Origin: PVC group bacterium
Lineage (GTDB): Bacteria > Verrucomicrobiota > Kiritimatiellia > CAIKKV01 > CAITUY01
Assembly: GCA_945890715.1 (NCBI GenBank)
Contig: CAMDCX010000004.1
Coordinates: 6,157 to 70,156, forward strand
Reading direction: 5' to 3'
DNA length: 64,000 nt
Both the position numbers and the translations under genes were made by a program. The notes under the pieces are model-generated. The model did not search any database. It had not been told where the DNA came from and saw nothing but the letters and a program-made list of their open reading frames with translations. Shown here piece after piece: positions 38,950-58,473 of the stretch. Each line of letters opens with the position of its first letter. Within the stretch, counting starts at the first letter, position 1.

Positions 38950-39083
38950 GAACCGCTCCTCCGCTAGTCATTCACTCCGGAACTTATTGTTTTACGATCC
39001 CAGTTGCAAGCCGGAGGAATGCGTGTTTCTTGACTTTCCCGCTCAGTTTGTCTTCACTGGGCACTTGCAACGGAGAGAACACC

Positions 39084-40097: not shown

Positions 40098-40117
40098 TTA
40101 AGGGAAAGGGGTGAGGC

Positions 40118-41791: not shown

Positions 41792-41806
41792 CCCGGGTTC
41801 GCCCTT

Positions 41807-42892
41807 TTATTTTATTCCAACAATGACCCCATGATCCCGGATAAGTTTCTGAACGACTATCTTGCGGAAGCCGACTTCCTTCATCCATGACTCATACTCA
41901 GACCACGTGTAAAGCATGCCTTCACCCGTCGCCAATGTCAGAAAATAGGGAGAGCCCATGGCCGCACTCAGCGGCCCAGTTTCAGTGTCATCCTGCATCA
42001 TATTGAAAATCATGGCGGCTCCTCCCGAAGGGAGCGACTCATAGGCTTTTCGAAGCAGAGCCCTATTCTTGACTTCCGACCAGATGGTCATGAAATGGCA
42101 GAACAAAATGCAGTCCATCCCCGCTGGGAACGGATCTGAGAAACAGTTTCCGGACACGGCATTAAGACGATCCTCAAGCCCGGCTTTCATGATATTGTCA
42201 GTCGCGAGCGCACACACACTGGGCCAATCAAAAACAGACGCCCTGAGCCCGGGATTTCGACTGGCCAGATTGATGATATTGGTCGCATTTCCTCCTCCCA
42301 CATCCAGCACATGTGAAAACCTTGAAAAATCCACCGATTCAACGAGCAAGTGATTCGCCTGTACAGAGATGGTCTGCATCGCATCCTGGAAGATTTTTTC
42401 AAGTTCTGGATTGGCCGACAACCGTTCGTAAAGAGTCGCCCCCTGTCCTGATATTTCATCCAGTCCGACATTCCGATTCCCCCTTAGGGCTTCTCCAAAG
42501 TGGAACATAGCCCGATAGTTAATGAAATGTTGCCACCGGATGACGGCCAGGAAATTCCTGGGATGGTCTGCGTTCAACAGCATATCAGCAAGCCGCGTAT
42601 TCCCATATCGCCCGTCGCGGTGTCGGCGCACCAGCCCTAATGCTGAGCATCCCAGCAAAAGAATTCTAACCGGCTTTTCTGCAATCCCAAGCATGGAGGC
42701 AATCGCCTCCCGACTCAACGGTCCTTTGCGGGCAAGCTGCGTGAACAAGTCCAATTGTACAGCGGCGCTCAAGGTTTGAAAATAGATATGCCCACCCATC
42801 ACCAGGCACACCTGACGAAGTGTGGAGCCAAGGAAAATCCGTTCCCCCGCCCGCGCCATCCAGTTCTTGATCGTATTTTTAAATAGACTCAT
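41807..42892 (-). CDS. Class I SAM-dependent methyltransferase, O-methyltransferase family 2 (CrtF/BchU-like architecture)
   Basis: An N-terminal winged-helix dimerisation region and the SAM motif 'VLDVGGGNATNIINLA'. ATG 42892 is preferred over the GTG at 42910. Confidence 0.85.
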   Translation of the reverse strand: MSLFKNTIKNWMARAGERIFLGSTLRQVCLVMGGHIYFQTLSAAVQLDLFTQLARKGPLSREAIASMLGIAEKPVRILLLGCSALGLVRRHRDGRYGNTRLADMLLNADHPRNFLAVIRWQHFINYRAMFHFGEALRGNRNVGLDEISGQGATLYERLSANPELEKIFQDAMQTISVQANHLLVESVDFSRFSHVLDVGGGNATNIINLASRNPGLRASVFDWPSVCALATDNIMKAGLEDRLNAVSGNCFSDPFPAGMDCILFCHFMTIWSEVKNRALLRKAYESLPSGGAAMIFNMMQDDTETGPLSAAMGSPYFLTLATGEGMLYTWSEYESWMKEVGFRKIVVQKLIRDHGVIVGIK

Positions 42893-42931
42893 CCCATCCC
42901 TCTTCAACACTCTTATGATTTGACAACGAGA

Positions 42932-44104
42932 TCAACCGGCTTGGTGCGGAAGGGCCAGTATTATCCGAGTCCCTTGTCCGGGCTGACTCTCGATTCGGAG
43001 CGTTCCGCCATGCGCTTCTGCCACCTGCCGGGCAATAAACATCCCCAATCCCGTCCCCCCGTGTTTATTTTTCGTGGTGTAAAAAGGCTCACACACTTTC
43101 CGGATCTGATCCTCAGTCATCCCGTGGCCATTATCCTCCACGACAATTTCAACACCCTGTCCACTCTCCCGGCATGCAATTCGAACCCATCCCTTTTTTG
43201 AGTAAACCGCATGAATGGCGTTGGTGACCAGATTTTGGAGCGCGCGGGTCAGTTGAACCTGATCGGCTTCAATCACAGGCTCAGGCGTCCCGATATCCGC
43301 CGACACTTCCACCCCATGTTCCCCCGCCACCACCCGGCCGTCTTTCATAACGAATTGAAGCAAACTCCCCAGTTTCACAGGCGTCCGATGCAGGGAGCCC
43401 CGACTGACATTCAACCACATCTCGGACAGGTTTTTGCACAGCATGGCGTTTTCTTCGATAATCCCGATATAATCCGAGGGATTCTCCTGATTTTGCCCCG
43501 GAGCCCCAGCGGGATTCTTAACCCATTCCGAAAGCAATCCGAGATACCCCATGATTGACGTCAGCGGATTCCTGAGATCATGAACCAATTCCGCCGACTT
43601 CTGTCCCAGCGTGGCCAGCCGCTCATTGCGGACGAGTTCATTTTTAAGGACTTCGTTCATCCGTCCCAAGTCCGTCTCCACATGCTGCCGCCGCCGCTCC
43701 TGCTGGGTGCGCCCAACACGATTCCGGATGATTTCCCGAATTTCGAAGGCATCAAACGGTTTCTTGATGTATTCATTGGCGCCAAGCCGGATCGCCTCCT
43801 GGGCCGTCTCCAAAGCACCAAAGCCGGTAAACATGATGATGGAGACCACTCCGTCAATCTCCCGGATTGCCTTCAGCCCCTCGATCCCATTTTTGCCCGG
43901 CATACGGATATCCATGATCACCGTATCCGGGTGGTGCTCCTTGAGCAGGGCAACGCCCTCGTCCACCGATTCCGCACACAAGACCTGGTACTCCGGCTTC
44001 AGAAGAATCCGGAGGCTTTCCCGCGGCCCGCGCTCATCATCAATGACCAGCACCTTGGGCAGGGCTGCGGGAGCAGCGCCATCAGCCTTAGAAAGTGCGG
44101 ACAT
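42932..44104 (-). CDS. Hybrid receiver-histidine kinase (REC-HisKA-HATPase, no TM)
   Basis: REC motifs 'KVLVIDDE..' and 'VIMDIRMPG', an H-box 'LVHDLRNPLTS', and G-boxes 'DNGHGM' and 'GGTGLGMFIA'. Confidence 0.88.
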   Translation of the reverse strand: MSALSKADGAAPAALPKVLVIDDERGPRESLRILLKPEYQVLCAESVDEGVALLKEHHPDTVIMDIRMPGKNGIEGLKAIREIDGVVSIIMFTGFGALETAQEAIRLGANEYIKKPFDAFEIREIIRNRVGRTQQERRRQHVETDLGRMNEVLKNELVRNERLATLGQKSAELVHDLRNPLTSIMGYLGLLSEWVKNPAGAPGQNQENPSDYIGIIEENAMLCKNLSEMWLNVSRGSLHRTPVKLGSLLQFVMKDGRVVAGEHGVEVSADIGTPEPVIEADQVQLTRALQNLVTNAIHAVYSKKGWVRIACRESGQGVEIVVEDNGHGMTEDQIRKVCEPFYTTKNKHGGTGLGMFIARQVAEAHGGTLRIESQPGQGTRIILALPHQAG

Positions 44105-45353
44105 AGGATACGCTCATGAGATGCGAGGTGGTTTCGTAAGTCCCGTTATACGCGGGATTCTGATCCTTCATCACGTCGCGATCTCCGATGAAGCTATAGC
44201 CGTAGGCAAGATCAATCCGATCCGGACCACGATGCCAGCCGGTTCCCAGCGTGACAACATGCCGGTCTGCATCGGGAAGTGTGGGAGCCAAAGTTTCTTC
44301 AGGCACCGGGCTCTGAAGGAAGATATAACCGGCGCGCAACGTTATCGCCTCGGCAACTTTCCAATCCGCCCCCAATCCAAACGTCCACGTATCCTTCCAA
44401 TTCTGACGCACCACCAGAGGCGCGCGGGGATTCGGGGAGGTCGGGCCATTTAACAGCGGATTGCTGTTGCCCGCATCAAGAGTCAGGGAGTCATACCGCG
44501 AGAACTCAATCCACTCCACATTCGCCTCGACCCTGACCGTATCGGACAACTCAATGCCATAACCAAGTCCCACGATGGTCGGAAACTCGATGGAGGATTC
44601 AAAATCACTCGAGGAACTCATTCCCATCGCCTGCGCCCCACTGAACTCACCGTCGCCCTCAAAGTCCACTTTGACCGGCGACCGGTACGTCAGGGCCAGA
44701 GACTGGGTCTTGGTCGGGCGAACCGTCACGGCGGCATTTCCGCCCACACCCGTTCCATCCCCCTGAAGATGCGCGGTCCCATCCGGCATGGCACCGCCTG
44801 TGAGCAGGGACCATGGCAGAACCTGCTTCATATCCAGCCGCGACAGATACACATCCAAACCGGCGGCAACCGAAACTTTTTCACCCAGCTTGGTCGCCAG
44901 AGTGGGATTGACATTGATTACCGTCAATTCCGCCGAGTAGGGCGCGGTGTAGCGAAACGCACCGGTTTTGTCCCAAACCGTAGACTGTCCGAACGGGCTC
45001 GTAATCCCCAAGCCGGCGGTAACGTTATGGTCCGATGAGGGCAATGCCATAAAAAGATTCGGAAGAAACTTCCAGGAATCTTCGGTTGAGGCCGTTCCCA
45101 TCGGCGAATGAAACTTGGTGCTCGTGTTAATGATCGTGACCGAGCCCATTGCCTGAGCTTCCTTGATTTCTGTCAGGTTGGCCGGATTGTGCTCCACCGC
45201 CGAAGCATCATCCACCTGGGCAATTTTTCCACCCACCCGTCCCAGGGCTTCCGCCCCGGCTGGTGGATTCCGAAATCCATTCGCCAATCCCAACGACCCC
45301 GCACACACTATAGACAGCCCAGTCATCACACCACTGTATCTTGTCATCTTCAT
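44088..45353 (-). CDS. FadL/TodX-family outer-membrane channel for hydrophobic compounds
   Basis: ATG 45353 with an AAAGGAG RBS and a signal peptide. 'GFRNPPAGAEALGRVGGKIAQVDDASAVEHNPANL' resembles the FadL N-terminal hatch. C-terminal '..SVSYVRTF'. It overlaps the next gene by 17 nt. Confidence 0.78.
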   Translation of the reverse strand: MKMTRYSGVMTGLSIVCAGSLGLANGFRNPPAGAEALGRVGGKIAQVDDASAVEHNPANLTEIKEAQAMGSVTIINTSTKFHSPMGTASTEDSWKFLPNLFMALPSSDHNVTAGLGITSPFGQSTVWDKTGAFRYTAPYSAELTVINVNPTLATKLGEKVSVAAGLDVYLSRLDMKQVLPWSLLTGGAMPDGTAHLQGDGTGVGGNAAVTVRPTKTQSLALTYRSPVKVDFEGDGEFSGAQAMGMSSSSDFESSIEFPTIVGLGYGIELSDTVRVEANVEWIEFSRYDSLTLDAGNSNPLLNGPTSPNPRAPLVVRQNWKDTWTFGLGADWKVAEAITLRAGYIFLQSPVPEETLAPTLPDADRHVVTLGTGWHRGPDRIDLAYGYSFIGDRDVMKDQNPAYNGTYETTSHLMSVSYVRTF

Positions 45354-45399: not shown

Positions 45400-45415
45400 A
45401 GCATCGAGAGTGCCA
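45400..45415 (-). promoter_or_regulatory. Sigma-54 (-24/-12) promoter for the FadL-like/REC-HK/OMT operon
   Basis: The minus strand reads TTGGCACTCTCGATGCTA, against the consensus TGGCAC-N5-TTGCW, with GG and GC at the correct spacing. It is about 47 nt upstream of ATG 45353. An NtrC-type activator is encoded 6 kb away. Confidence 0.6.
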
Positions 45416-45591
45416 AGTCATTTTAATCAATATATTGTGGATAAACTAACCCTGACACCACGTATATAGCGTGCCGCACAATTATGTACAGATCAATTCC
45501 GAACAGTTGTCCATTAATGTACATTTCCTGTTAATAATTATTGCGTTTTTTCGAGACTTATGCACAATTCCGTTAAGTTCAATTTTTCACT

Positions 45592-46851
45592 ATGGAGACA
45601 ACCCGAATAGTGAGCCGGAATAGAGTGGTGGTGACCGGCCTTGGTGTGGTAGCGCCCAATGGAATCGGGAAGGAGGCCTTTTGGTCTTCCCTGCTTGAAT
45701 GCCGAAGCGGTATTAAAAACATCACCCTTTTTGATGCCAGCAAACACTCCTGCCGAATTGCGGGGGAAGTGAGCGACTTTGATGCGGCACGTCATGTGGG
45801 TCCCGGAATTAACCCGAAACGCCTCGCCCGCCAGACCCAAATGGCGCTCGCCGCTACCGCCCAAGCTTTTCAGGACGCCAATTTATCCCGCGAAACCTTG
45901 ATCTCAGACAAGGCGGTGCCCCTAGTCCTGGGCGTCAGTTCCAGTGCCATCGAAATCATCGAGCACGGAATGGAAAGGATGGCCGGGCTGGGGCCCACCC
46001 GGGTTCCCGCACACATCGTCAATGCCTGTCAACCTCATCAAGCCGCCAGCACCATCGCCCTGCACTTTCCGCTACTCACCCGTGCCACAACCATGGCCTC
46101 GGCGTGTGCGGCAGGCCTCGACGCAATCGGGGCGGCCGCAGACCTGATCCGAAGTGGCCGCGCCGATGTCGTGGTCTGCGGAGGGACTGACGCGCCCATC
46201 AACCCCCTGACGTTTGCATGTCTGGCAAAGGCAGGCCTGGTTTCATTGCGCAATGAAACCCCTGAAAAAGCCAGCCGCCCCTTCGATGCAGATAGCGACT
46301 CGGGCGTCATTTCCGAAGGCGCGGGAATCGTAATTCTTGAAAGCCTCGCCCATGCCACCGCCCGAAACGTCAAACCCTATCTCGAAATTACCGGGTTCGC
46401 CACGCGTTATGACACAGATCCTGCAGTCTCGGGATCAGGTTTCGGTGCCACCATGACCGAAGCACTGGCCAATGCGGGCCGACGCCCCTCGACGGTGGAC
46501 TACATCTGTGCGCATGGCCCCGGCCATCCGGTTATGGATCGTAATGAAACCCGCATGATCAAGACCGTGTTCGGGGCGCTTGCCTACACAATCCCCATCA
46601 GTTCCATCAAGGGCGTCACCGGCAATCCCCTCGCCGCCGCAGGCCCCTTTCAGCTCATCGCCTGCTCCCTCGCCATTCGCAACGGAATGATCCCTCCCAC
46701 TGCAAATCTCGAAAAGGCGGATCCTGACTGTGACCTTCATTACACCCCCAAAACTCCATGCGCCTCACGCCTGAACTGTATTCTGGTGAATTCACACGGG
46801 TTGGGAGGCGGAAATAGCTGCCTTATCCTGGAAAGGGTTCCCCCCTCATGA
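45592..46851 (+). CDS. FabF-like beta-ketoacyl synthase with a Cys-His-Asn active-site pattern
   Basis: 'VVVTGLGVVAPNG', active-site 'ASACAAG' and 'CAHGPG'. The block equivalent to FabF 'KSMTGH' reads 'KGVTGN'. C-terminal 'NSHGLGGGN'. Confidence 0.88.
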   Translation: METTRIVSRNRVVVTGLGVVAPNGIGKEAFWSSLLECRSGIKNITLFDASKHSCRIAGEVSDFDAARHVGPGINPKRLARQTQMALAATAQAFQDANLSRETLISDKAVPLVLGVSSSAIEIIEHGMERMAGLGPTRVPAHIVNACQPHQAASTIALHFPLLTRATTMASACAAGLDAIGAAADLIRSGRADVVVCGGTDAPINPLTFACLAKAGLVSLRNETPEKASRPFDADSDSGVISEGAGIVILESLAHATARNVKPYLEITGFATRYDTDPAVSGSGFGATMTEALANAGRRPSTVDYICAHGPGHPVMDRNETRMIKTVFGALAYTIPISSIKGVTGNPLAAAGPFQLIACSLAIRNGMIPPTANLEKADPDCDLHYTPKTPCASRLNCILVNSHGLGGGNSCLILERVPPS

Positions 46852-49343
46852 CTCTGATTTCCATCGCCCATTTCCTGGGCATTGCGATCAGCTTTTTCAT
46901 AGGGGTCTTCGTCTTCTTTACCAATCCGCGCCGAAGGACAAACCAGTTCTTCCTCATGTTGTCTACCCTGCTGACGACCTGGCTGATCTTCATGGCCATA
47001 GGGTTCCTCTTCCCGGACGTCAAAACCGTCGCCATGTGTGTACGCGGCTGCATGATGGCCGGGGCCATGATTCCCCTCTCGTTCGACTGGCTCCGGGTCT
47101 CCATTATACACCCCGAAAAATCCCGGTGGTGGATTCTCACCCAGTCTCCTCTCTGGTTGATGGCCTCGTTGATGTTCGGCGCGGTTTCGCTAACCCATGT
47201 CTTCGTCCTGGGCGCGACCCCCTCCCTCACGGGAGTGGATCTGCACGTCATCCCCGATCCCGTTTATAGTCAAGCTTTCCCGCTTTACAGTGCCTTCCAG
47301 ATCATCAACATGGGACTGCTGATCCACCGGTTTATCGGCGACCTCAGAACGACACGCGGCATCCAGAAAACCGAACTTCAATTCATTCTTCTGGGAAGCG
47401 CCTCCAGTGTCTTCATTGGTATTTTCACCGCACTGGTCATTCCAGTGATTACCGATAACTCCCAATCCGTCCAATTCACCCCCCTGTCCGTCATCTGCCT
47501 GTATGTGGTCATCGCCTATGGAATTGCCACCCGCCGCATCATGGATGTGGCCTATATCATGCGCAGGCTGACCGCCTATGCGCTACTCCTCGTCTATTTG
47601 ATGGCCCTGTATGCAGGCGTCTGGACGCTCCTGAACCGGCTGCTCGAGGCGCTGTGGGTGCCATTCCCATCCGTCTCCTATTTCATCGCCTCTCTGGCGG
47701 TGGCGATTTCCCTGGCGCCTGCCAATGGATTGATGCAGCGGCTTGCCAGCCGCCTGTTTGTACACATCGCCCCCCTCGACATGAATCAGCTCGCGCATTC
47801 CGCCAATACCCTTCTGCGCTCCATCAACAGGATTGACACTTTGCTCGCGGAATTCTCAACCCTGCTCATGTCCACGGTAGGAACGGATCGCGTCTGCATC
47901 CTGATTAATGTCTCCGGAAACCACGAACAATGGTTCCCCATCCCGGAGCGCCCGCCGGGACTCTCCTTCCCTGTGGATAGCCCCCTTCCCGCAATCCTTT
48001 TCCAGACCGAAGGGCCCCTCGTTCCGGAACTCCAGTACCGGGTGAAACCTGAAGCTCACATTAAAAGGGCGTGTCGTCTGCTGGAAGAAAAGGGATTCGC
48101 GGCGGCGATCGGCCTGCGCTCCCAGGAGGGACTGGAGGGTCTCGTCCTTCTCGGCCCACGGCTTTCGGGCACGATCTACGGCACTCCCGAGCAACAGGCC
48201 GTCCAACTTCTCTGCAACCACCTTGCCGTGGCGCTCAATAATGCCCGGCTCTACACCCAGCTTCAGGATGGCAAGATCTACAACGATATTCTGGTCGACA
48301 GCCTGGTCAGCGGGATCATCGCCGCCAATCAGGACGGAAAAATCACCGTCTTCAACCGCGAGGCTCAACGCATCACCCAACTGCCTCTGGACAAGACCGT
48401 AAATCACTCCCTGTTTATCCTCCCCCCCGCCTTGGCGACGCTCCTCACCGACACCATTGCCCACAGCGAAGGATTACGTGATCAGGATATTTCCCTGTCT
48501 CTTCCCTCGGACGCGTCCATTCCCATCCGGGTAAGCAGTGCCGTTTTTTACGGACATTCCGGAAAAATGCTCGGCGCCTTCCTGGTCATCACCGATCTGT
48601 CCACGGTTCGTCAATTGGAACTTCAGGTTCGCCGGACTGATCGCCTGGCCAGCCTGGGAACCCTGGCCGCCGGCATGGCGCATGAAATCAAAAACCCCCT
48701 TGTGTCCATTAAAACCTTCACCCAGCTCCTGCCCGAGCGTTACGACGATGCCGATTTCCGGGATACCTTCTCCTCGCTGGTGGGTGGCGAAGTCAAACGC
48801 ATCGACTCCATCGTCAACCAGCTCCTCCGGTTTTCCCGTCCCTCCAAACCGGTACTGGCACCCTCCTTACTCCACGAAATCCTGAGCAACAGCCTCAAAC
48901 TCATTCAGCAACAGTTACATTCGAAAAACATTCAACTTGTTACGTCATTCACCCTGAACTCTGACCGGATTAACGCCGATGGAGACCAGCTCGGCCAGGC
49001 CCTCATCAACTTCCTTCTGAACGCCATCGAGTCGATGCCGGATGGCGGCACCTTGACGGTCACCACCCAGCACCCCCCCCGCAACGGGGACACGGGAGCC
49101 CGGCACACCCCGACCCTTCAAGTCTCCATCCAGGACACCGGTTCCGGAATTTCTCCTGAAAACCTGTCCCATGTTTTCGACCCGTTCTTCACGACCAAGA
49201 GTCAGGGAACCGGATTGGGTCTTTCGGTGGCTCATGGCATCATTCAGGAGCACAGTGGATGCATTGATATTCAGAGCGAGGTCGGACAGGGCACCACATT
49301 TATCCTGACATTCCCCGTGATCGAGGAGGCAAAACAGTTATGA
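46848..49343 (+). CDS. Sensor histidine kinase (N-terminal 7TM-type domain, GAF, PAS, HisKA, HATPase)
   Basis: About 8 TM segments in the first 300 aa, then a GAF ending '..LAVALNNARLY', a PAS 'SGIIAANQDGKITVFN', an H-box 'AHEIKNPL' and G-boxes 'DTGSGI' and 'GTGLGLSVA'. Its ATG overlaps the KS stop (ATGA). Confidence 0.88.
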   Translation: MTLISIAHFLGIAISFFIGVFVFFTNPRRRTNQFFLMLSTLLTTWLIFMAIGFLFPDVKTVAMCVRGCMMAGAMIPLSFDWLRVSIIHPEKSRWWILTQSPLWLMASLMFGAVSLTHVFVLGATPSLTGVDLHVIPDPVYSQAFPLYSAFQIINMGLLIHRFIGDLRTTRGIQKTELQFILLGSASSVFIGIFTALVIPVITDNSQSVQFTPLSVICLYVVIAYGIATRRIMDVAYIMRRLTAYALLLVYLMALYAGVWTLLNRLLEALWVPFPSVSYFIASLAVAISLAPANGLMQRLASRLFVHIAPLDMNQLAHSANTLLRSINRIDTLLAEFSTLLMSTVGTDRVCILINVSGNHEQWFPIPERPPGLSFPVDSPLPAILFQTEGPLVPELQYRVKPEAHIKRACRLLEEKGFAAAIGLRSQEGLEGLVLLGPRLSGTIYGTPEQQAVQLLCNHLAVALNNARLYTQLQDGKIYNDILVDSLVSGIIAANQDGKITVFNREAQRITQLPLDKTVNHSLFILPPALATLLTDTIAHSEGLRDQDISLSLPSDASIPIRVSSAVFYGHSGKMLGAFLVITDLSTVRQLELQVRRTDRLASLGTLAAGMAHEIKNPLVSIKTFTQLLPERYDDADFRDTFSSLVGGEVKRIDSIVNQLLRFSRPSKPVLAPSLLHEILSNSLKLIQQQLHSKNIQLVTSFTLNSDRINADGDQLGQALINFLLNAIESMPDGGTLTVTTQHPPRNGDTGARHTPTLQVSIQDTGSGISPENLSHVFDPFFTTKSQGTGLGLSVAHGIIQEHSGCIDIQSEVGQGTTFILTFPVIEEAKQL

Positions 49344-51349
49344 CCACTCATGCGTCCTGTTTGCTCTACACCTCAGACACCCCTTGGGCAACCCGCATCG
49401 GCGCCTTCCTATCCCCCCTGATCATGCTTCATCCGCTCGAAACCTCGGCTTCAGTTCAAGGGTTTCTGGAGCAACACCCCACCAGTCTTGTATTGCTCGA
49501 TCTTCAAACAACGGGCGCTCTGGATCTGTTGAGCCTCCTCAACCATCGCTATCCCCATACCTTGGTCATCGTCTTCGGAACCGCCACCTCAGATCCCATG
49601 CTCGAGGCGGAGCGACTTGGCGTTTATGCCCTGGAAACAAGCGATGTAAGTTGCCCCCGATTGACCCATCTTATTCAGCAGGCTCTGGCCCACCTTGCAC
49701 TGGCGGGCGAAAACCGACTCCTCAGGCAGGAAACCCTCAGGCTTAACGCCATGACCGAGGCGACCCAGCGCCTCCCTCTGCCGGACACGGATTCCTCCCT
49801 CGATATCCGGGATTTTTCGGCCGCTTTACGTCATTTTACCCATGTGGAAACCCTTCTGCACCGCCTGGTTGACGAAGTTGCCGGATCGCTTCGGGTTTCC
49901 CGCGTGGGTATTTTTTGCCGCACCCGGGATGTGGCGTCTTACCGGCTTCGGGCAAGCTTGCGTTGCCTTGAATCCTCGTCCACACTGGAGTATTCGGAAA
50001 CCGATCCGCAAGTTCTGTGGCTGGCGATCCATCCCCACGCTGTCACTCGTGCCAATCTTACCCATGTGCGAAATCCCACAACCCGGTTGATGTTGCAGAA
50101 TCTTCTGGATCAAATGGGGGCTGAAATACTGATTCCTCTCCAATCCCGGGATCGGCTTCAAGGCTGGCTCTTTGTGGGAAATCTGGCAACAGGCTTGCCG
50201 TTTGATGACCGGCACCTCCACAAACTCATCACCCTGACCGATTGCGTTTCCACAACACTGGAAAACGCTTTGCTCTATGAGGAAATTACCATTCAAAAGA
50301 CCCTGGCGGAAACGCTCCTGCATTCCATTCCCAACGGGATCATCGCCGTGGATGATGACGGCATTGTCCGGTGGTATAACGACACCGCCCAGAGTCTTCT
50401 CGGCATTCAGGCCGCCGTTGCCATTGGGCGCCCCATTGAGGGACTGGGTAGACGCCTGGCCGACCTGCTTCGACGTACCCTGGGGGAAAGCGGCTCACCC
50501 CAATCGGACGAATGGAGGGAATCCACCACTCAACGCACCTTCACGGCCCGCACCCGCAGATTGTCCTCTCCGGCCCGTTGCCTCGGCGCCGTAGGAGTGA
50601 TTCAGGACATCACGGATCAAAAAAACATGAAGGAAAAGGAGGAGCGCCTGGATCGTGCCACCTTCTGGGCCGAACTCGCGGCCAGCATGTCACACGAGGT
50701 TCGCAATCCCCTCGTCGCCATAAAAACCTTTGCCCAGCTTCTCCCGGAACGCTACCAGGACACGGAATTCCAGCATGAATTCAAGGATCTCGTTTCATCC
50801 GAGGTCGAGCGGTTGAATAGCATCGTGGATCAGATCCATGCCTTCGCCCATCCCCCTGCTCTCACGTTCAAAACCATCCAGCTTCAAGCCTGCATTGCCT
50901 CTGCCTGTGCCCGTGTTTTCCCTTCAGAGCCTCCCTCTAACATCCGTGTCACCGTTTCCGCCCCGGACGCCCTGCCCACCCTCCAGGGCGATGACCGAGC
51001 CCTCATTGAAGCGTTCACCCACATCCTGACAAACTCAAAAGAGGCTCTGACCACCACACCCCATCCGGAAATCACCCTTACCCTGCGTCTTGTTGAGGAT
51101 CCGGAACACTCCCCCGCCATAACCGTCATGTTCAAGGATAATGGACCCGGGATCGCGCCCGACATGCTTGATAAATTGTTTTCGCCGTTCTCCACAACCA
51201 AGGCCCGGGGTCTTGGTCTGGGACTTCCCATCGCTCGCCGAACCATTCTTGACCATAATGGAATCATCACCGTTCACTCCAATGAATTTGGAGTCCTGAT
51301 CACCATTCGGATCCCTCTTGTCTTCCCCCAGTCCGAAGTCCCATCATGA
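49340..51349 (+). CDS. Cytoplasmic histidine kinase (degenerate receiver-like N-terminus, GAF, PAS, HisKA, HATPase)
   Basis: N-terminal 'SLVLLDLQTTGALDLL' is receiver-like but lacks the usual acidic pair. H-box 'SHEVRNPL', G-boxes 'DNGPGI' and 'GLGLGLPIA'. ATGA overlaps at both ends. Confidence 0.85.
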   Translation: MTTHASCLLYTSDTPWATRIGAFLSPLIMLHPLETSASVQGFLEQHPTSLVLLDLQTTGALDLLSLLNHRYPHTLVIVFGTATSDPMLEAERLGVYALETSDVSCPRLTHLIQQALAHLALAGENRLLRQETLRLNAMTEATQRLPLPDTDSSLDIRDFSAALRHFTHVETLLHRLVDEVAGSLRVSRVGIFCRTRDVASYRLRASLRCLESSSTLEYSETDPQVLWLAIHPHAVTRANLTHVRNPTTRLMLQNLLDQMGAEILIPLQSRDRLQGWLFVGNLATGLPFDDRHLHKLITLTDCVSTTLENALLYEEITIQKTLAETLLHSIPNGIIAVDDDGIVRWYNDTAQSLLGIQAAVAIGRPIEGLGRRLADLLRRTLGESGSPQSDEWRESTTQRTFTARTRRLSSPARCLGAVGVIQDITDQKNMKEKEERLDRATFWAELAASMSHEVRNPLVAIKTFAQLLPERYQDTEFQHEFKDLVSSEVERLNSIVDQIHAFAHPPALTFKTIQLQACIASACARVFPSEPPSNIRVTVSAPDALPTLQGDDRALIEAFTHILTNSKEALTTTPHPEITLTLRLVEDPEHSPAITVMFKDNGPGIAPDMLDKLFSPFSTTKARGLGLGLPIARRTILDHNGIITVHSNEFGVLITIRIPLVFPQSEVPS

Positions 51350-52710
51350 AAACCATGCTCATTGTTGACGACGATCGGGGCAGTCGCGAATCCCTTCGAC
51401 AAACATTTTCACGCCTTTACCATACCCGGCTTGCCGAAAATGCCGCCGAGGCTCTCCGGGACTTGAACGCGCATCCCGTGGATATCGTGATGCTGGACGT
51501 GATGATGCCGGGAAAGGACGGGGTTACTTTATTAAAGGAACTGAACGAGCTTTATCCAGGCCTTCCCTGCGTGATGGTTAGTGCCTCACCGGCGGTACGG
51601 CCGGTGGTGGAGGCCATGAAGGCAGGTGCGGGCGACTTTGTCATCAAACCCTTTGACGTGGAGGAAATCCGGCGCATCGTGGCCCGGGTTATTGAGACCA
51701 GCGCCCTACGCCGCCGGGTCGTTATTCTTCAGGACGAAGTGTCCCGGGAACACCCCACCGATGAACTCGTCGGCCAGGCACCGGCCTTCCTTGAAACCCT
51801 CACATCTGTCAAACAGGCTTCAACCAGCAATGCCACCATTTTGATTCAGGGGGAAAGCGGCACCGGAAAAGAACTGATTGCCCGGCGCCTGCATCGGCTC
51901 AGTCCGCGGGCCGATGAACCGTTTATTCCCATCCATTGCTCCGCTCTGCCGGAAACCCTCATGGAGAGTGAATTGTTTGGTCATGAAAAGGGCGCTTTTA
52001 CGGGCGCCGACACCCGCAAGATGGGGCGGTTCGACCTGGCCGGATCCGGAACCCTTTTTTTCGATGAAGTCGGCGAGATGTCGCTGGCCATGCAGGTTAA
52101 ACTGTTGCGAGTACTCCAGGAACGCGAGTATATGCGGCTGGGAGGAACCCAGGTCATCAAGACCCATGCCCGTATTATCACCGCTACGTCGCGGATTCTG
52201 GAAGACGAGGTACGCCTGCACCGGTTCCGGGATGATCTGTATTACCGGCTAAACGTTATTCCCATCACACTCCCGCCTCTCCGTAAAAGGATGCAGGATA
52301 TCCCCCTGCTCGCCCGGCATTTCCTCCGGTTATTCCAGCAAAGCATGAATCATAACGTGCGTGATTTTTCAGCTGAATCTCTGGAAAAACTGGCCGCCTA
52401 TTCCTGGCCGGGCAATATCCGGGAACTCCGCAACATCGTCGAACGAACTCTCGTGCTGCACAGTCGCCAGGAAGTGATCCTTCCTGATCATCTTCCTGAA
52501 TTCATCCAGATAAAATCGATCAGTCTTTCACCCGTTAGACGAGAGGGACTTGATTTGGAAAGCGCCATATCGGCCTGTGAGCGGGAACTGATCCAGGGGG
52601 CACTCCGGGAATCCAAAGGAAACCAAACCCAAGCCGCCCGACAGCTGGGAACCACCCGGCGAATTTTGCGCTACAAAATGGACAAACTGTCACTCAGTGC
52701 CGCATCCTGA
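51346..52710 (+). CDS. Sigma-54-dependent response regulator (NtrC family: REC-AAA+-Fis HTH)
   Basis: REC 'MLIVDDD...VMLDVMMPG', Walker A 'GESGTGKE', the sigma-54 contact loop 'GAFTGA', Walker B 'LFFDEVGE' and HTH 'NQTQAARQLGTTRRILRYKM'. Confidence 0.93.
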   Translation: MKTMLIVDDDRGSRESLRQTFSRLYHTRLAENAAEALRDLNAHPVDIVMLDVMMPGKDGVTLLKELNELYPGLPCVMVSASPAVRPVVEAMKAGAGDFVIKPFDVEEIRRIVARVIETSALRRRVVILQDEVSREHPTDELVGQAPAFLETLTSVKQASTSNATILIQGESGTGKELIARRLHRLSPRADEPFIPIHCSALPETLMESELFGHEKGAFTGADTRKMGRFDLAGSGTLFFDEVGEMSLAMQVKLLRVLQEREYMRLGGTQVIKTHARIITATSRILEDEVRLHRFRDDLYYRLNVIPITLPPLRKRMQDIPLLARHFLRLFQQSMNHNVRDFSAESLEKLAAYSWPGNIRELRNIVERTLVLHSRQEVILPDHLPEFIQIKSISLSPVRREGLDLESAISACERELIQGALRESKGNQTQAARQLGTTRRILRYKMDKLSLSAAS

Positions 52711-55242
52711 CCAACCGCCCACTGCTTCCATTTGATTCTGATTCCGAAGAAAAGCATCTACCACGGCGGGATCAAAATGCGTACCCTGCCCAAACCGGAG
52801 TTCAGCCGCTGCCTTATCGGGGGCCATCGACTTTCGATAGGGCCGATTCGACCGCATGGCATCATAGGCGTCGATCACGCCGAATATCCGGGCGCTCAAA
52901 CAGATCTCGTCCCCTTTCAGTCCGCGGGGATAGCCCTTCCCGTCATACCGCTCCTGATGGGATCGAACCACCTCCGCGACATCCTTGAGATACGGGCTTG
53001 AGGACAGGATGTTATACCCGACTTCCGGATGGGTCTTCATCACCTTCCATTCATCCTCGGTTAAGGGTCCTTCCTTAAGCAAAATACAATCCGGAACTGA
53101 AATTTTTCCAATATCGTGCAACTGGGCGCCTCGCGCCAGAATATCGAGTTCTTTTCGGGAAAGGCTCATCAACTTGCCCAGCGCGTGGGACAGCGCCCGA
53201 ACCCGGTTGCTGTGCTGTCCCGTGTTGTGCTCCCGCACGTCCAACAATCCGACAAAGGCCTGCAAGGTGAAGTCGTACGAACTTTTCAACGCCTCCATCG
53301 TCTCCAGCAGCACCGCACTCTTCTGGCGGATCATGTCCTCCAGATGCAGCCGGTATCGCTCGTTCTCAATCCGCAACCGGCGGTGTTCAAGCACCTTCTC
53401 CATCACCGCCAACAGTTGCGAGGGGGTCACCGGTTTCTCAATGAAATCAAAAGCCCCCTCCCGGAGACACGCCACCGCGTTTTCCTTGGTCGCATACCCC
53501 GTCATCACCACCGTCATCACAAAACTGTCCGTTTGTCGCAGCGCCGCCAGCAAATTCAGACCGCTGAGTCCGGGCATGGTTAAATCCGTGATGGCCACAT
53601 CATAAAGCCCGGGATGCTGTCGGACTTTTTCAATCGCCTCATGGGACCCCCCGGCCGTATCAACGCGGTATCCGGCACCCTCCAGGATCCTTTTCAGAAC
53701 CTTGAGAATCATCTCATCATCGTCAACCACCAGAAGAAAAGGCGTATGAGAAGTCCCCTCCTTTTGCTCATCCTGGTTCCGGTTCTCACGGACCTGCACC
53801 CCCGCCTCCCTGTCCTGCGGCGCGGTCCACAAGCAACACCGGTTCCGCCCTTCCCGTTTTGCCGTATACAGCGCGACATCAGCAAGACGCAACATTTCGG
53901 ACGCATGATCAGAGGACGTAATATCACGACTGGTCGCGAGTCCAACCGAGGCCGTCAGTTTCAGGCAAAGCGTATCGGCACAAAACACATGCTCATCCAC
54001 CGCCTTGCGAATGCGGTTTCCCAGGGTGAGGCCTGAAGGAAGATCCGTCTGGGGAAGCAGAACGACAAACTCATCCCCGCCATATCGGGCGACCACATCC
54101 GACGTCCGGGCCACCTGGGTGAGAATCCCGGCAAACTCCTGAAGAATCCGATCCCCCACCAAATGCCCATGGGTATCGTTGACGGACTTAAAATGATCGA
54201 GATCGGTGATGGCGACAGCCATATTATGATTGTACCGCCGAGCCAGTTGCCAGGCCTGTTCCGTCTGTTCCTCAAAGTAGGCGCGATTGTAAAGCCTCGT
54301 CAGGGAATCATGGGCCGCCATCTCCCGAATGCGGGTAACGGCGGAAAGAATGGAAGAAAGCACATTGGCAACGTGATACACAAATGCCACATCCACCACG
54401 GCCATTTGTTCCGCCTTCGCAGCGGCCAACAGCAGAATCCCCTGAACCTCGCTGTGAACAAGAAGCGGAATGGTCAGCAACCTCCCGGGAACCGAAGGCC
54501 CGTCAGAAGCCTGGGGCACCCCCTCAACCTGAAGTCTTAAATGACTCCGATCAATGGTCTTGCCGCTCAGGGCTTCATACCGCGCCACAATTTCATCGCC
54601 CGCGGTTTTCAGGAAAGCGTCGGACACGCAACTCTGGGCGCTCAACACAATGATGGCCTCGTCTTCCGAAAACCCGAACAATCCGGCAACATCGCAGGAG
54701 GTCAGCTCGCCTAACCCCTCACTCAATTCCTGAAGGGCTTCAACAAATGTTCCGGATGCGAGGGCGGTCTCACCGAGTTGGCCGAGCATGCGCAATTGGC
54801 GCTGATGCTGCTCAAGGCCGGGTCCCGCCGCCCCCATTCCGGCCCGCCGTTCGCGATATTCGTCAAGGACACTCTGCGCCAAATAAAGGGGACGAATCGG
54901 CTTCTCGAGAATATGATGAATGTTCAGCCGCGAGGAAAGTTCCTCGGAAACATCATCCAGGTAACCGGTCAAAATGATGAACCCGAGCCAGGGCCAGATA
55001 TTCCGGGCCTCCTGAATAAAGGTGATTCCGTCCATCTCCTGCATTCGCAGGTCAACCAGAACCACATCAAAATCCTGACGCAGAAGGATCTGCAGGGCCA
55101 CGCGGCCATTTTCAGCAACCTCCACCGCACCGCCATAGGAACTCAGGACGCGCTCGACCAAAAGACGAATGGCCTCATCGTCATCCACCACGAGCACCCG
55201 GATCCCCACCAGACTGATTGTTTCCTTTGTATCGGATGTCAT
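52690..55242 (-). CDS. REC-GAF-GGDEF-REC-HD-GYP multidomain c-di-GMP turnover protein
   Basis: Two receivers ('VLVVDDDEA..VLVDLRMQ' and 'LLVVDDDEM..AITDLTMPG'), an intact 'RYGGDEFVVLL', and an HD-GYP domain with 'LHDIGK' and 'DGKGYPRGL'. Its 3' end overlaps the convergent NtrC-type gene by 21 nt. Confidence 0.9.
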   Translation of the reverse strand: MTSDTKETISLVGIRVLVVDDDEAIRLLVERVLSSYGGAVEVAENGRVALQILLRQDFDVVLVDLRMQEMDGITFIQEARNIWPWLGFIILTGYLDDVSEELSSRLNIHHILEKPIRPLYLAQSVLDEYRERRAGMGAAGPGLEQHQRQLRMLGQLGETALASGTFVEALQELSEGLGELTSCDVAGLFGFSEDEAIIVLSAQSCVSDAFLKTAGDEIVARYEALSGKTIDRSHLRLQVEGVPQASDGPSVPGRLLTIPLLVHSEVQGILLLAAAKAEQMAVVDVAFVYHVANVLSSILSAVTRIREMAAHDSLTRLYNRAYFEEQTEQAWQLARRYNHNMAVAITDLDHFKSVNDTHGHLVGDRILQEFAGILTQVARTSDVVARYGGDEFVVLLPQTDLPSGLTLGNRIRKAVDEHVFCADTLCLKLTASVGLATSRDITSSDHASEMLRLADVALYTAKREGRNRCCLWTAPQDREAGVQVRENRNQDEQKEGTSHTPFLLVVDDDEMILKVLKRILEGAGYRVDTAGGSHEAIEKVRQHPGLYDVAITDLTMPGLSGLNLLAALRQTDSFVMTVVMTGYATKENAVACLREGAFDFIEKPVTPSQLLAVMEKVLEHRRLRIENERYRLHLEDMIRQKSAVLLETMEALKSSYDFTLQAFVGLLDVREHNTGQHSNRVRALSHALGKLMSLSRKELDILARGAQLHDIGKISVPDCILLKEGPLTEDEWKVMKTHPEVGYNILSSSPYLKDVAEVVRSHQERYDGKGYPRGLKGDEICLSARIFGVIDAYDAMRSNRPYRKSMAPDKAAAELRFGQGTHFDPAVVDAFLRNQNQMEAVGGWSGCGTE

Positions 55243-55407: not shown

Positions 55408-55635
55408 ATGAAAAAGAGAGATGCCATAGGACTTCTGCTAACCGGTTTCAGCGTGAGCGCCTTTCGCGCAGCGGAAGCCGCACAGTCCCTTGGTGAAAAA
55501 TCCGGAGCCCTCTCGGCCTTCCAGGAAGCTCATCCGCTACTGACAATCCTGACTCATATTGGCACCATTCTCCTGTTAGTTGGATTTTTCACCCTTTTGT
55601 TCGCAGGCTCAAATCGGGAATCGAATAAATTTTAA
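55408..55635 (+). CDS. Small hypothetical protein (signal-like N-terminus, C-terminal TM)
   Basis: 75 aa, '[24 protein letters not shown]...[14 protein letters not shown]'. No homology recognised. Its stop overlaps the convergent clpB stop. Confidence 0.3.
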
Positions 55636-58250: not shown

Positions 58251-58473
58251 ATCGAGGCCTCCCCTGCTTGTATCTTGCCTATAACAACTAGCAACGATCG
58301 TTCCAATTCCAGAACACAAAAGAGCTAGATGCTTAACAATCTGATCAACAAGAAGTTAAGAAATCTCAACCGAGGAAAATAAAAGCGACAAGGGAGACAT
58401 TATGACACAGCCAGGGACATTATTTCCCATTCCCTCGGATAATCAATCGGACAAAACGCATCAGTCCTGCGTT

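What the first reader, a model, noticed from the sequence alone, without database searches (positions are those of the whole stretch)
45592..46851. FabF-scaffold ketosynthase with Cys-His-Asn instead of Cys-His-His, translationally coupled to a sensor kinase
The protein aligns along its full length with KAS II. The active-site Cys ('ASACAAG'), the first His ('CAHGPG') and the Lys ('SIKGVTG') are present. The second catalytic His of FabF ('KSMTGH') is replaced by Asn ('KGVTGN'). In KAS I/II both His residues take part in malonyl-ACP decarboxylation, and a C-H-N triad is normally the hallmark of the KAS III/chalcone synthase branch, not of FabF-like enzymes. No ACP, KR, DH or AT gene is adjacent. 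Instead, the stop codon overlaps the ATG of a 7TM histidine kinase. A ketosynthase as the first gene of a two-component/sigma-54 operon is unusual. It suggests either signal-molecule synthesis or a lipid-sensing accessory role.
Basis: partly seen in the sequence, partly recalled or inferred. Interest (0 to 1): 0.65.

Follow-up and report, generated by a model that had tools for sequence, protein, structure and literature searches.

The report
Remodelled ketosynthase wired to sensor kinases
A protein built like a fatty-acid chain-extending enzyme, but with a rebuilt active site, is always encoded directly in front of a membrane sensor kinase in many uncultured bacteria, so it most likely makes, processes or reports a lipid-like signal rather than building membrane fatty acids.

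Summary
ORF 45592-46851 is a full-length FabF-fold protein (AF2 pLDDT 92, TM 0.9 to FabF). It keeps Cys172, His308 and Lys340 and has Asn345 (AAT, 46624-46626) where FabF has His340.

This is a family trait. In 121 homologues the position is Asn in 105, Ser in 16 and His in none. The whole malonyl and gating site is rebuilt: T305P, T307H, E349Q, F398H, F400L, R206G and a 4-residue deletion of Y267-T270.

The kinase link is close to absolute. In 99 of 99 metagenome loci with enough sequence, the next gene is the 7TM-GAF-PAS kinase, usually with overlapping stop and start codons. A second kinase follows in 42 of 43, and a divergent REC-kinase is present in 55 of 58.

FadL and the sigma-54 regulator occur only in this window's clade. 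There a sigma-54 promoter precedes FadL in 8 of 8 loci.

Two results are new here. The near-invariant His402 aligns with the acid/base Cys378 of thiolases. The "triad" positions vary (His/Tyr/Trp at 308; Asn/Ser/Gln/Cys at 345), while Cys, Lys and His402 stay.

The function is unproven. My best reading (about 0.45) is an acyl-enzyme that makes or processes a hydrophobic ligand read by the partner kinase. The main rival (about 0.3) is an acyl-thioester sensor subunit. I found no published description.

The parts
45592..46851 (+). FabF-fold ketosynthase-like protein (419 aa) with Cys172, His308, His312, Lys340, Asn345, Gln354 and His402. First gene of the kinase operon.
46624..46626 (+). Codon AAT = Asn345, at the position of FabF His340
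   Evidence: In the family: Asn 105, Ser 16, His 0.
46795..46797 (+). Codon CAC = His402, at the position of FabF Phe398. It aligns with thiolase Cys378. In the family it is His in 114 and Arg in 7; Arg occurs only together with Tyr308.
46848..49343 (+). HK1: membrane histidine kinase. About 8 TM helices (1-~300), GAF (~327-471), PAS (482-583), HisKA, HATPase. Its start overlaps the KS stop (ATGA).
   Evidence: Orthologues hit PF16927 HisKA_7TM.
49340..51349 (+). HK2: soluble kinase with a receiver-like N-terminus, a weak GAF match, PAS, HisKA and HATPase. ATGA overlap with HK1.
   Evidence: Present in 42 of 43 loci.
51346..52710 (+). NtrC-type response regulator (REC, sigma-54 AAA+, HTH_8). 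ATGA overlap with HK2. Specific to this clade.
45400..45415 (-). Sigma-54 promoter-like element TGGCACTCTCGATGCT (GG-N10-GC), 47 nt upstream of the FadL ATG
   Evidence: An equivalent element lies upstream of FadL in 8 of 8 FadL-bearing loci.
44088..45353 (-). FadL/TodX-family outer-membrane channel (PF03349). The start is set at the conserved ATG at 45353.
42932..44104 (-). REC-HisKA-HATPase protein (receiver fused to a kinase). Part of the universal core, divergent from the KS.
   Evidence: 55 of 58 loci
41807..42910 (-). O-methyltransferase (Methyltransf_2 plus dimerisation domain), last gene of the FadL operon. Strain-specific: absent from the 91% and 83% relatives.
52690..55242 (-). GAF-GGDEF-REC-HD-GYP protein with two receiver stretches, convergent with the regulator gene. 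Syntenic in L090, L092, L083 and L155.

Best explanation
The gene encodes a FabF-derived acyl-enzyme. It is a dedicated subunit of a multi-kinase signalling module, not a fatty-acid elongation enzyme.

Proposed mechanism:
1. It still loads an acyl group on Cys172. The oxyanion-hole loop, Lys340, Asp316, Glu319, Asp274 and Asn408 are all retained.
2. It no longer binds and decarboxylates malonyl-ACP as FabF does.
3. A rebuilt second-substrate site (His312, Asn345-Pro346, Gln354, and His402 at the thiolase acid/base position) turns the acyl-thioester into a hydrophobic product, or releases one.
4. The co-translated 7TM-GAF-PAS kinase HK1 reads that product in the membrane or on its GAF/PAS domains.
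5. HK1, HK2 and the REC-kinase form a phosphorelay.
6. In this organism the relay ends at an NtrC-type activator. That activator switches on the sigma-54 promoter of the divergent operon (FadL channel, REC-kinase, O-methyltransferase).
7. The FadL-type channel would let the hydrophobic compound cross the outer membrane, giving feedback.

Shown: the fold, the residue pattern, the obligate KS-HK1-HK2/REC-HK linkage and the conserved sigma-54 promoter.
Inferred: acylation of Cys172, loss of elongation, the existence and nature of the product, which kinase domain reads it, and the order of the relay.
For: Not housekeeping:
- Below every NCBIfam KAS cutoff.
- Forms a clade apart from 40 FabFs, support 0.99.

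Active site under selection, not decaying:
- Cys172 in 120 of 121, Lys340 in 121 of 121, Asp316 and Glu319 in 121 of 121, His402 in 114 of 121.
- The KS is among the best conserved proteins of the module: 52-91% identity, against 31-89% for the HK1 TM part.

Malonyl, ACP and gate elements replaced in concert:
- T305P, T307H, H340N, E349Q, F398H, F400L, R206G, G310 to Leu/Met/Ile.
- Deletion of Y267-T270. H268 and T270 contact AcpP and matter for FabF activity, and G310M is a pocket-block mutant.

Thiolase-like signature: GNP versus thiolase GHP, and His402 aligned with thiolase Cys378. Tyr308 occurs only together with Arg402, 7 of 7.

Linkage:
- HK1 is the next gene in 99 of 99 loci, HK2 in 42 of 43, REC-HK in 55 of 58. 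The 87 full-length KS ORFs among these loci fall into 57 clusters at 90% identity.
- The stop and start overlap in 69 of 85 junctions.

Hydrophobic-compound context:
- HK1 has a multi-TM sensor with only a small extracytoplasmic hairpin.
- A FadL/TodX channel sits under a conserved sigma-54 promoter.
- Small-molecule enzymes recur in or beside the module: O- or C-methyltransferases (window, L087, L088); a VAO/PCMH-type flavoprotein (L081, L085, L087, L097 and the Cys-Trp-Asn subclade L124/L197, which adds a desaturase-like enzyme); an SDR.
Against: - No enzyme assay, product or expression data exist.
- No thioesterase, ACP, exporter or other biosynthetic gene is part of the universal core, so it is unclear how a product would be released.
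- The KS operon has no recognisable sigma-54 promoter of its own, so the synthase shows no obvious autoinduction.
- The KS and the HK1 sensor are not hypervariable between relatives, unlike pherotype-type signal/receptor pairs.
- The second-substrate positions vary (308: His/Tyr/Trp; 345: Asn/Ser/Gln/Cys; 312: His/Asp). This could mean relaxed constraint on a second half-reaction, which would favour the sensor reading.
- The thiolase alignment has low overall HHalign probability (23%). It rests on motif blocks and on textbook structural equivalences, not on coordinates.
Confidence: 0.45

Rival explanations
1. Acyl-thioester sensor ('trigger enzyme'). The protein makes no product. It becomes acylated on Cys172 by acyl-ACP or acyl-CoA, for example from fatty acids or hydrophobic compounds taken up through FadL. 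The acylated or gate-open form binds the cytoplasmic GAF/PAS part of HK1 and sets kinase activity.
For: - The residues needed for the transacylation half-reaction are strictly kept (Cys, oxyanion loop, Asp274-Asn408 network, Lys340). Those of the condensation half-reaction are lost or variable. This is the logic of non-elongating KS0 domains (own knowledge).
- The stop and start overlap with HK1 in most lineages.
- There are no product-release or export genes in the core.
- The regulated operon encodes an uptake channel, as in substrate-induced uptake systems.
- HK1 has cytoplasmic GAF and PAS domains that could dock a partner.
Against: - New residues are nearly invariant in the former malonyl site (His312/Asp, Pro346, Gln354, His402). 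This argues for a functional second site rather than a dead one.
- R206G and the loss of H268/T270 weaken the canonical ACP docking surface.
- Small-molecule tailoring enzymes recur next to the module.
Confidence: 0.3
2. Membrane-lipid remodelling effector in a DesK-like homeostasis circuit. HK1 senses a physical or chemical state of the membrane. The KS-like enzyme alters acyl chains of a membrane or outer-membrane lipid and is encoded with its sensor.
For: - HK1 is a multi-TM kinase without a large periplasmic domain.
- In the window's closest relatives an LpxC-like deacetylase and class-B radical SAM genes are syntenic.
- In the soil clade LpxD follows the module.
- A desaturase-like gene accompanies the Cys-Trp-Asn subclade.
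Against: - The KS is not in the regulated (sigma-54) operon. It sits with the sensors.
- Elongation-type residues are lost.
- LpxD and FBP aldolase are probably just housekeeping neighbours.
- No ACP, reductase or dehydratase is present to complete an elongation cycle.
Confidence: 0.1
3. Catabolic or processing enzyme for an imported hydrophobic or phenolic compound. The FadL/TodX channel imports an alkyl-phenol-like or fatty substrate. The KS-like protein performs a thiolase-like cleavage or condensation on its CoA ester. The kinases sense substrate availability.
For: - Thiolase-like motif features (GNP, His402 at the Cys378 position).
- The VAO / p-cresol-methylhydroxylase-type flavoprotein (1wve, E 8e-58) recurs with the module and keeps the Tyr-Arg pair.
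- O-methyltransferases are present, and the channel is of the TodX/FadL family.
Against: - No CoA ligase, hydratase or dehydrogenase genes are conserved with the module.
- FadL and the flavoprotein are absent from most lineages that keep KS-HK1-HK2.
- Tyr95 of PCMH is Leu or Phe in the module's flavoproteins.
Confidence: 0.1
4. An ordinary spare fabF copy that happens to lie next to kinase genes.
For: Full-length FabF fold. Database annotations call it 3-oxoacyl-ACP synthase II.
Against: - Below all curated FabF cutoffs.
- His340 is absent in 121 of 121 homologues.
- A separate clade from FabFs.
- 99 of 99 linkage to the same kinase across 57 clusters at 90% identity.
Confidence: 0.02

Closest known systems
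FabF / KAS II (beta-ketoacyl-ACP synthase II; TIGR03150; E. coli FabF, PDB 2GFW/6OKG; Synechocystis 1E5M; B. subtilis 4LS5)
   Same: - Same fold over the full length: TM 0.90-0.94, 33-39% identity.
- Retained residues: nucleophilic Cys, first His (mostly), Lys335, Asp311, Glu314, Asp265, Asn404, the GxGG loop, and part of the basic ACP patch (K65/R68/K69/K128 equivalents).
   Different: - H340N, E349Q, T305P, T307H, F398H, F400L, F229G, I108 to Ser/Thr/Cys, R206G, and a 4-residue deletion removing Y267-T270.
- 362 bits against a cutoff of 493.75.
- Never next to fab or acp genes, always next to kinases.
KAS III (FabH) and type III PKS (chalcone synthase): the Cys-His-Asn condensing enzymes
   Same: The composition of the triad, Cys-His-Asn, which is a proven solution for decarboxylative Claisen condensation (for the FabH triad; the rest is own knowledge).
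   Different: - A different branch of the thiolase superfamily. There is no hit to ACP_syn_III-type models, and all sequence and structure matches are to KAS I/II.
- In this family the His and the Asn are themselves variable.
Biosynthetic and degradative thiolases (E. coli AtoB, Zoogloea PhaA): Cys-Asn-His-Cys
   Same: - The motif G-N-P-L-A-A-A-G resembles thiolase G-H-P-x-G-A-S-G.
- The near-invariant His402 aligns with the acid/base Cys378, two residues before the oxyanion-hole residue.
- This suggests non-decarboxylative chemistry.
   Different: - Overall sequence and fold subclass are KAS II, not thiolase.
- The Asn/His order is swapped relative to thiolase.
- The alignment probability is low, and no coordinates were available to check the geometry.
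Non-elongating KS0 domains of trans-AT PKS and chain-length factors (KS-beta)
   Same: KS-fold proteins that have lost part of the Cys-His-His machinery and no longer elongate, yet keep a defined role (own knowledge).
   Different: - KS0 lose the first His, and CLF lose the Cys. Here the second His is lost and a new His appears at position 402.
- This is a stand-alone protein with no PKS, ACP or partner KS nearby.
Lipid-signal synthase / membrane-kinase pairs: RpfF-RpfC-RpfG (DSF), CqsA-CqsS (CAI-1), PhcB-PhcS-PhcR
   Same: - A lipid-metabolism-fold enzyme is encoded beside a multi-TM histidine kinase.
- A REC-kinase protein recalls PhcR.
- A REC-HD-GYP / GGDEF protein is syntenic, as RpfG is in Rpf.
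- FadL homologues are known to admit hydrophobic signals (own knowledge).
   Different: - The enzyme folds differ: crotonase, PLP enzyme and methyltransferase, against a KS here.
- No product is known.
- Three kinases sit in one module.
- This is an analogy only. Nothing was tested.

Membership tests
FabF / KAS II (TIGR03150 equivalog) | Score at or above the curated cutoff of the family model | tested here: not met
   362.0 bits against a cutoff of 493.75. NF005589 gives 344.3 against 387.
FabF / KAS II | Cys-His-His catalytic triad (C163, H303, H340) | tested here: not met
   Cys and the first His are present. H340 is Asn345 here, and no member of the family has His there.
FabF / KAS II | Thiolase-type KAS I/II fold over the full length | tested here: met
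   AF2 pLDDT 92. Foldseek TM 0.90-0.94 to FabF structures.
FabF / KAS II | Gating loops: GFGG with Phe400, and loop 2 with Tyr267, His268 and Thr270 | tested here: not met
   Loop 1 reads GLGG. Loop 2 is 4 residues shorter, although D265 and N404 are kept.
FabF / KAS II | Decarboxylative condensation of acyl-ACP with malonyl-ACP | not testable with these tools
   Needs an enzyme assay or complementation.
KAS III / type III PKS | Cys-His-Asn triad | tested here: met
   C172, H308 and N345 in this protein. The triad is not conserved in relatives.
KAS III / type III PKS | Membership of the FabH/CHS sequence families | tested here: not met
   The only hits are ketoacyl-synt N and C and a weak Thiolase_N match. 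The NCBIfam hits shown are KAS I/II, PKS KS and thiolase models, with none of the FabH type.
HisKA_7TM-type sensor kinases (partner gene) | N-terminal 7TM domain PF16927 followed by a kinase core | tested here: inconclusive
   Orthologues at 38-54% identity hit PF16927. The window's own N-terminus gives no Pfam hit even at E<=5. About 8 TM helices are predicted.
Sigma-54 dependent two-component regulator (NtrC family) | REC + Sigma54_activat AAA+ + HTH_8, and a GG-N10-GC promoter at a target | tested here: met
   Domains. The promoter TGGCAC-N5-ATGC lies upstream of FadL and is conserved in 8 of 8 loci. Actual activation was not tested.
Autoinducer synthase / receptor-kinase systems | The enzyme makes a diffusible product that activates the adjacent kinase | not testable with these tools
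   Only the gene linkage is shown.

The most novel reading that the evidence does not exclude
KS-like proteins of this family would be the signal-generating enzymes of a widespread, undescribed class of lipid-type signalling systems in PVC-group and other uncultured bacteria.
- A FabF scaffold has been converted to thiolase-like, non-decarboxylative chemistry, with a Cys172/His402 pair.
- It makes a hydrophobic acyl-derived molecule.
- That molecule is read inside the membrane by the co-translated 7TM-GAF-PAS kinase.
- In this clade it is let through the outer membrane by a sigma-54-induced FadL channel.
- Variable tailoring enzymes (methyltransferases, VAO/PCMH-type oxidase, desaturase-like enzyme) would diversify the signal.
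Probability: 0.3. Interest if true: 0.85.

Novelty: new variant of a known kind. Interest (0 to 1): 0.7.

Why it matters
Condensing enzymes of the KAS I/II type are textbook Cys-His-His elongation enzymes. Here a large, purifying-selected branch has dropped that chemistry and become an obligate part of a histidine-kinase module.

If the protein makes a signal, this would be a new family of bacterial signal synthases and would suggest a ligand class for the orphan HisKA_7TM kinases. If it is an acyl-thioester sensor, it would be a new kind of kinase input device, one that couples lipid metabolism directly to two-component signalling.

Either way it gives a concrete, testable entry point into signalling in poorly studied PVC-group bacteria: a small soluble protein, one Cys and one His. 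It would also correct the widespread 'FabF' annotation of these genes.

Tried and rejected
I could not check whether the same genome has a normal fabF, acpP or other copies of the module.
2. The genome-contig scan with the family alignment was swamped by ordinary FabFs through one unspecific pattern. Only L001 (a Verrucomicrobiae MAG) was a true member. A family-specific DNA pattern on metagenome contigs worked instead.
3. Pherotype-like hypervariability of the KS plus sensor half was a lead from earlier notes. It is not seen among this window's relatives: the KS is one of the better conserved proteins.
4. Sensor-fused KS proteins exist (PilZ-KS, PocR-KS). Three of the four keep the canonical HGTSTP / GH / NSFGFG-type motifs, and the fourth (P0246) keeps His at the second-His position, so none is a member of this family. 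I do not use them as evidence that this KS is a regulated output.
5. Bit score against the family profile does not separate the family from canonical KSs in the 1.84-billion library. Giant PKSs and canonical FabF-likes score above 420 bits. Residue signatures had to be used.
6. The fold search of the HK1 sensor region matched only its GAF domain. The TM bundle has no solved relative.
7. AF2 coordinates are not exposed, so the His402-Cys172 distance could not be measured.
8. The VAO/PCMH-type flavoprotein keeps the Tyr-Arg pair but not Tyr95, so a phenolic substrate is only a lead.
9. Three of the four full-text searches looked for a description of a Cys-His-Asn KAS II-type protein or a KS-kinase operon and found none. 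The fourth looked for the thiolase/KAS structural equivalence and also found nothing useful. The library lacks most subscription journals.
Full report
**1.

The ORF at 45592-46851 (+) encodes 419 aa. It carries both Pfam ketoacyl-synthase domains. It aligns from residue 8 to 415 with solved FabF structures: 1e5m at E 1.8e-82, and 4ls5. An AlphaFold2 model built on 56 family sequences has pLDDT 92.1 and superposes on FabF structures at TM 0.90-0.94.

- In the HMMER alignments 'SSIKGVTGNPLAAAG' lies over 'SSTKSMTGHLLGGSG'.
- A MAFFT alignment with E. coli FabF (taken from NC_000913) and 80 ordinary FabFs puts Asn345 on His340, Cys172 on Cys163, His308 on His303 and Lys340 on Lys335.
- The codons were read from the window: TGT 46105-46107, CAT 46513-46515, AAG 46609-46611 and AAT 46624-46626.

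**2. The whole active site is remodelled, and the change is a family trait**

A search of 5.8 billion proteins returned more than 120 relatives of 53-100% identity. Residues at the key positions:

| Position | Residues in 121 relatives |
|---|---|
| 345 | Asn 105, Ser 16, His 0 |
| 172 | Cys 120 |
| 340 | Lys 121 |
| 308 | His 114, Tyr 7 |

Positions where at least 80% of the family differs from at least 80% of FabFs (E. coli numbering):
- G101P, G110A, E191D, A207L, F229G
- loss of His268 within a 4-residue deletion (Y267-T270)
- T305P, T307H, S336G, M337V, H340N, E349Q, I366A

Further changes at functionally named positions:
- F398 becomes His (114 of 121).
- The gate residue F400 becomes Leu, Ile or Met.
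- R206 becomes Gly.
- I108 becomes Ser, Thr or Cys.
- G310 becomes Leu, Met or Ile.

According to Mindrebo et al., F400 and the GFGG loop form gate loop 1. Y267, H268 and T270 lie in gate loop 2 and contact AcpP and its pantetheine arm. G310M is a pocket-block mutant. D265 and N404 hold the gate network.

The family keeps D265, N404, the glycines, D311, E314 and K335. It has changed every residue that in FabF handles the malonyl group, together with part of the ACP contact. The basic patch K65/R68/K69/K128 is mostly retained.

**3. The 'triad' is not the conserved feature**

- Within the 121 relatives, Tyr308 occurs only together with Arg402 (7 of 7).
- A subclade recovered from metagenomes has Trp308 ('AWGPGHP').
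- Among 50%-identity representatives of 1.84 billion proteins, single-domain relatives show these patterns, almost always with Pro346, Gln354 and His402:

| Pattern | Count |
|---|---|
| Cys-His-Asn | 24 |
| Cys-Trp-Asn | 3 |
| Cys-His-Gln | 3 |
| Cys-His-Cys | 2 |
| Cys-His-Ser | 1 |
| Cys-Asn-x | 2 |

The constant elements are therefore Cys172, Lys340, Pro346, Gln354 and His402.

An HHalign comparison of the family profile with E. coli AtoB has low overall probability (23%), but all catalytic blocks are in register:

| This family | Thiolase (AtoB) |
|---|---|
| Cys172 | nucleophilic Cys |
| His308 | Asn of NEAF |
| Asn345-Pro346 | His-Pro of GHP |
| His402 | second catalytic Cys (Cys378, 'CIGGG') |
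| Leu404 | oxyanion-hole Gly380 |

This agrees with the textbook equivalence of FabF Phe400 and thiolase Gly380 (own knowledge). I infer a FabF scaffold that has acquired a potential acid/base residue where thiolases have theirs. That would suit non-decarboxylative chemistry (condensation, thiolysis, hydrolysis or acyl transfer). The geometry could not be checked because model coordinates are not exposed.

**4. The link to kinases is nearly absolute**

Eight loci fetched through exact protein look-ups (KS identity 53-91%) all read REC-HisKA-HATPase <- FadL <-|-> KS -> 7TM kinase -> PAS kinase -> sigma-54 regulator.

A family-specific DNA pattern (S-I-K-G-[VI]-x-G-N-P-L-A) then retrieved 120 metagenome loci. 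I scored these with HMMs built from the module proteins:

| Feature | Loci with the feature / loci with room for it |
|---|---|
| Family-grade KS genes | 109 |
| HK1 sensor domain is the next gene, same strand | 99 / 99 |
| HK2 follows | 42 / 43 |
| Divergent REC-kinase (or FadL) upstream | 55 / 58 |
| FadL adjacent | 7 / 58 |
| Sigma-54 regulator follows | 4 / 24 |

- The 87 full-length KS ORFs form 57 clusters at 90% identity, 40 at 80% and 16 at 70%.
- The junction shows overlapping stop and start codons (ATGA, GTGA, TTGA or TAATG/TGATG) in 69 of 85 cases.
- The universal core is REC-kinase <-|-> KS-HK1-HK2. FadL and the NtrC-type regulator belong to this window's clade.
- In the large soil clade, to which the Verrucomicrobiae MAG L001 appears to belong by its matching neighbours, HK2 is followed by FBP aldolase, LpxD and a stand-alone receiver.
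- A FastTree phylogeny puts all family members, including the Cys-Trp-Asn group, in one clade apart from 40 FabFs (support 0.99).

**5. The partner proteins in the window**

- HK1 (46848-49343) has about 8 TM helices with only a short extracytoplasmic hairpin, then GAF (profile match to 3o5y, E 2e-5), PAS, HisKA and HATPase. The TM bundle has no solved structural relative.
- HK2 (49340-51349) has a receiver-like N-terminus, a weak GAF match, PAS and an apparently intact kinase core.
- The regulator (51346-52710) has REC, a sigma-54 AAA+ domain and HTH_8.
- All three junctions are ATGA overlaps.

**6. Regulatory logic in this clade**

On the minus strand, 47 nt upstream of the conserved FadL ATG (45353), lies TGGCACTCTCGATGCT. 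This is a GG-N10-GC sigma-54 promoter. An equivalent element precedes FadL in all 8 FadL-bearing loci examined. None precedes the KS.

The likely circuit is that the KS/HK1/HK2/regulator operon is expressed from another promoter, and the regulator induces the FadL / REC-kinase / extra-enzyme operon.

The extra enzyme varies between loci:
- an O-methyltransferase in the window. It is absent from the 91% and 83% relatives, and blastn shows that 41329-42930 is a replacement or insertion.
- a UbiE-type methyltransferase in L088.
- a VAO / p-cresol-methylhydroxylase-type flavoprotein in L081, L085 and L087.

The same flavoprotein type lies head-to-head with the KS in L097. In the Cys-Trp-Asn subclade (L124, L197) it sits in one operon with a desaturase-like enzyme and the KS. 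This recurrent company of small-molecule tailoring enzymes and a hydrophobic-compound channel is the main reason I favour a small hydrophobic ligand. Whether that ligand is phenolic is only a lead: the Tyr-Arg pair of PCMH is kept but Tyr95 is not.

**7. What it most likely does**

Shown:
- the FabF fold
- a selected, remodelled active site
- an obligate operon partnership with three kinases
- a conserved sigma-54 target encoding a FadL channel

Inferred: the protein forms an acyl-Cys172 intermediate, cannot run the FabF condensation, and uses the new site (His312, Asn345, Gln354, His402) to produce or release a hydrophobic acyl-derived molecule that HK1 reads. I give this 0.45.

The main rival, at 0.3, is that it is a non-turnover acyl-thioester sensor that docks on HK1. 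The pattern 'transacylation residues strict, second-half-reaction residues variable' fits that reading well. So does the absence of release or export genes in the core.

Lower-ranked rivals are a DesK-like lipid-homeostasis effector and a catabolic thiolase-like enzyme. An ordinary spare fabF is excluded for practical purposes.

**8. Comparison with what is known, and novelty**

- The closest family by sequence and structure is FabF, but three of its defining features fail: the model cutoff, the triad and the gating loops.
- The triad composition matches KAS III and type III PKS, but the protein is not a member of those families.
- The closest functional analogies are RpfF/RpfC/RpfG, CqsA/CqsS and PhcB/PhcS/PhcR (own knowledge). 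They were not tested.
- Three full-text searches found no description of such a protein or operon. A fourth sought the thiolase/KAS residue equivalence and also found nothing useful.
- Database names are only '3-oxoacyl-ACP synthase II'.
- Earlier notes of this scan describe the same KS-kinase pairing in other genomes. I treated them as leads:
  - I confirmed the pairing and the Cys-Tyr-Asn variant independently.
  - I did not see the reported hypervariability in this clade.
  - The PilZ- and PocR-fused KSs I found are not members of this family: three of the four have canonical FabF-type motifs and the fourth keeps His at position 345.

**9. Organism**

The ClpB encoded at 55632-58319 has its nearest named relatives (74-76% identity) in Kiritimatiellae/Kiritimatiellia and Verrucomicrobiota MAGs. 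Closer relatives (80-95%) are labelled only 'bacterium'. The window therefore comes from an uncultured PVC-group lineage.

**10. Limits**

- There are no expression or biochemical data.
- The thiolase equivalence rests on a low-probability profile alignment plus established structural correspondences.

Noticed in passing
window 41329-42930: The window is collinear with its 91%-KS relative L090 at 85-87% nucleotide identity, except here. The 3' end of the class-B radical SAM gene and the whole O-methyltransferase gene have no close counterpart in L090 or L092. GC dips to about 51%. This looks like a local replacement or insertion at the tail of the sigma-54 operon.
   Followed up: partly
window 37633-41791: Two B12-binding radical SAM genes and an LpxC-like deacetylase gene lie next to the module. 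They are syntenic in L090, L092 and L083, and a related radical SAM gene is in L193. They are absent from more distant members, so the link to the KS module is clade-specific and its meaning is unknown.
   Followed up: partly
window 45420-45560: The FadL/KS intergenic region has conserved blocks across the window, L090 and L092. These include three TG(T/A)ACA-type hexamers and CAATAT(A/G)TTGTGG, 30-150 bp upstream of the sigma-54 promoter. They are candidate enhancer sites for the NtrC-type regulator.
   Followed up: partly
window 52690-55242 (-): A GAF-GGDEF-REC-HD-GYP protein with two receiver stretches is convergent with the regulator gene, with a 21-nt tail overlap. It is syntenic in L090, L092, L083 and L155. 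It is a plausible second phosphorylation target linking the module to c-di-GMP.
   Followed up: partly
L124:1125-5000, L197:229-4117, L102: A subclade of the family has Cys-Trp-Asn ('AWGPGHP'). It sits in an operon of a desaturase-like di-iron enzyme, a VAO/PCMH-type flavoprotein and the KS, followed by a soluble protein with GAF/PAS-like sequence features (judged by eye; no Pfam or NCBIfam hit) instead of the 7TM kinase.
   Followed up: partly
P0246, P0277, P0281, P0282 (representative library): KS proteins with an N-terminal PilZ or PocR sensor domain exist. Three have canonical FabF-type motifs; P0246 keeps Cys-His-His but has some family-like residues (GHP, Gln354). They form a separate, also unusual, group of sensor-fused ketosynthases and are not members of the family studied here.
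   Followed up: partly
L081:3447-5048, L085:3243-4853, L087:4138-5751, L097:2-1117: The flavoprotein that recurs with the module belongs to the 4-alkylphenol oxidase group (p-cresol methylhydroxylase 1wve, E 8e-58; vanillyl-alcohol and eugenol oxidases). It keeps the Tyr-Arg pair but has Leu or Phe at PCMH Tyr95.
   Followed up: partly
window 55632-58319 (-): The nearest named relatives of this ClpB are Kiritimatiellae and Verrucomicrobiota MAGs, at 74-76% identity. This places the window in an uncultured PVC-group lineage.
   Followed up: yes
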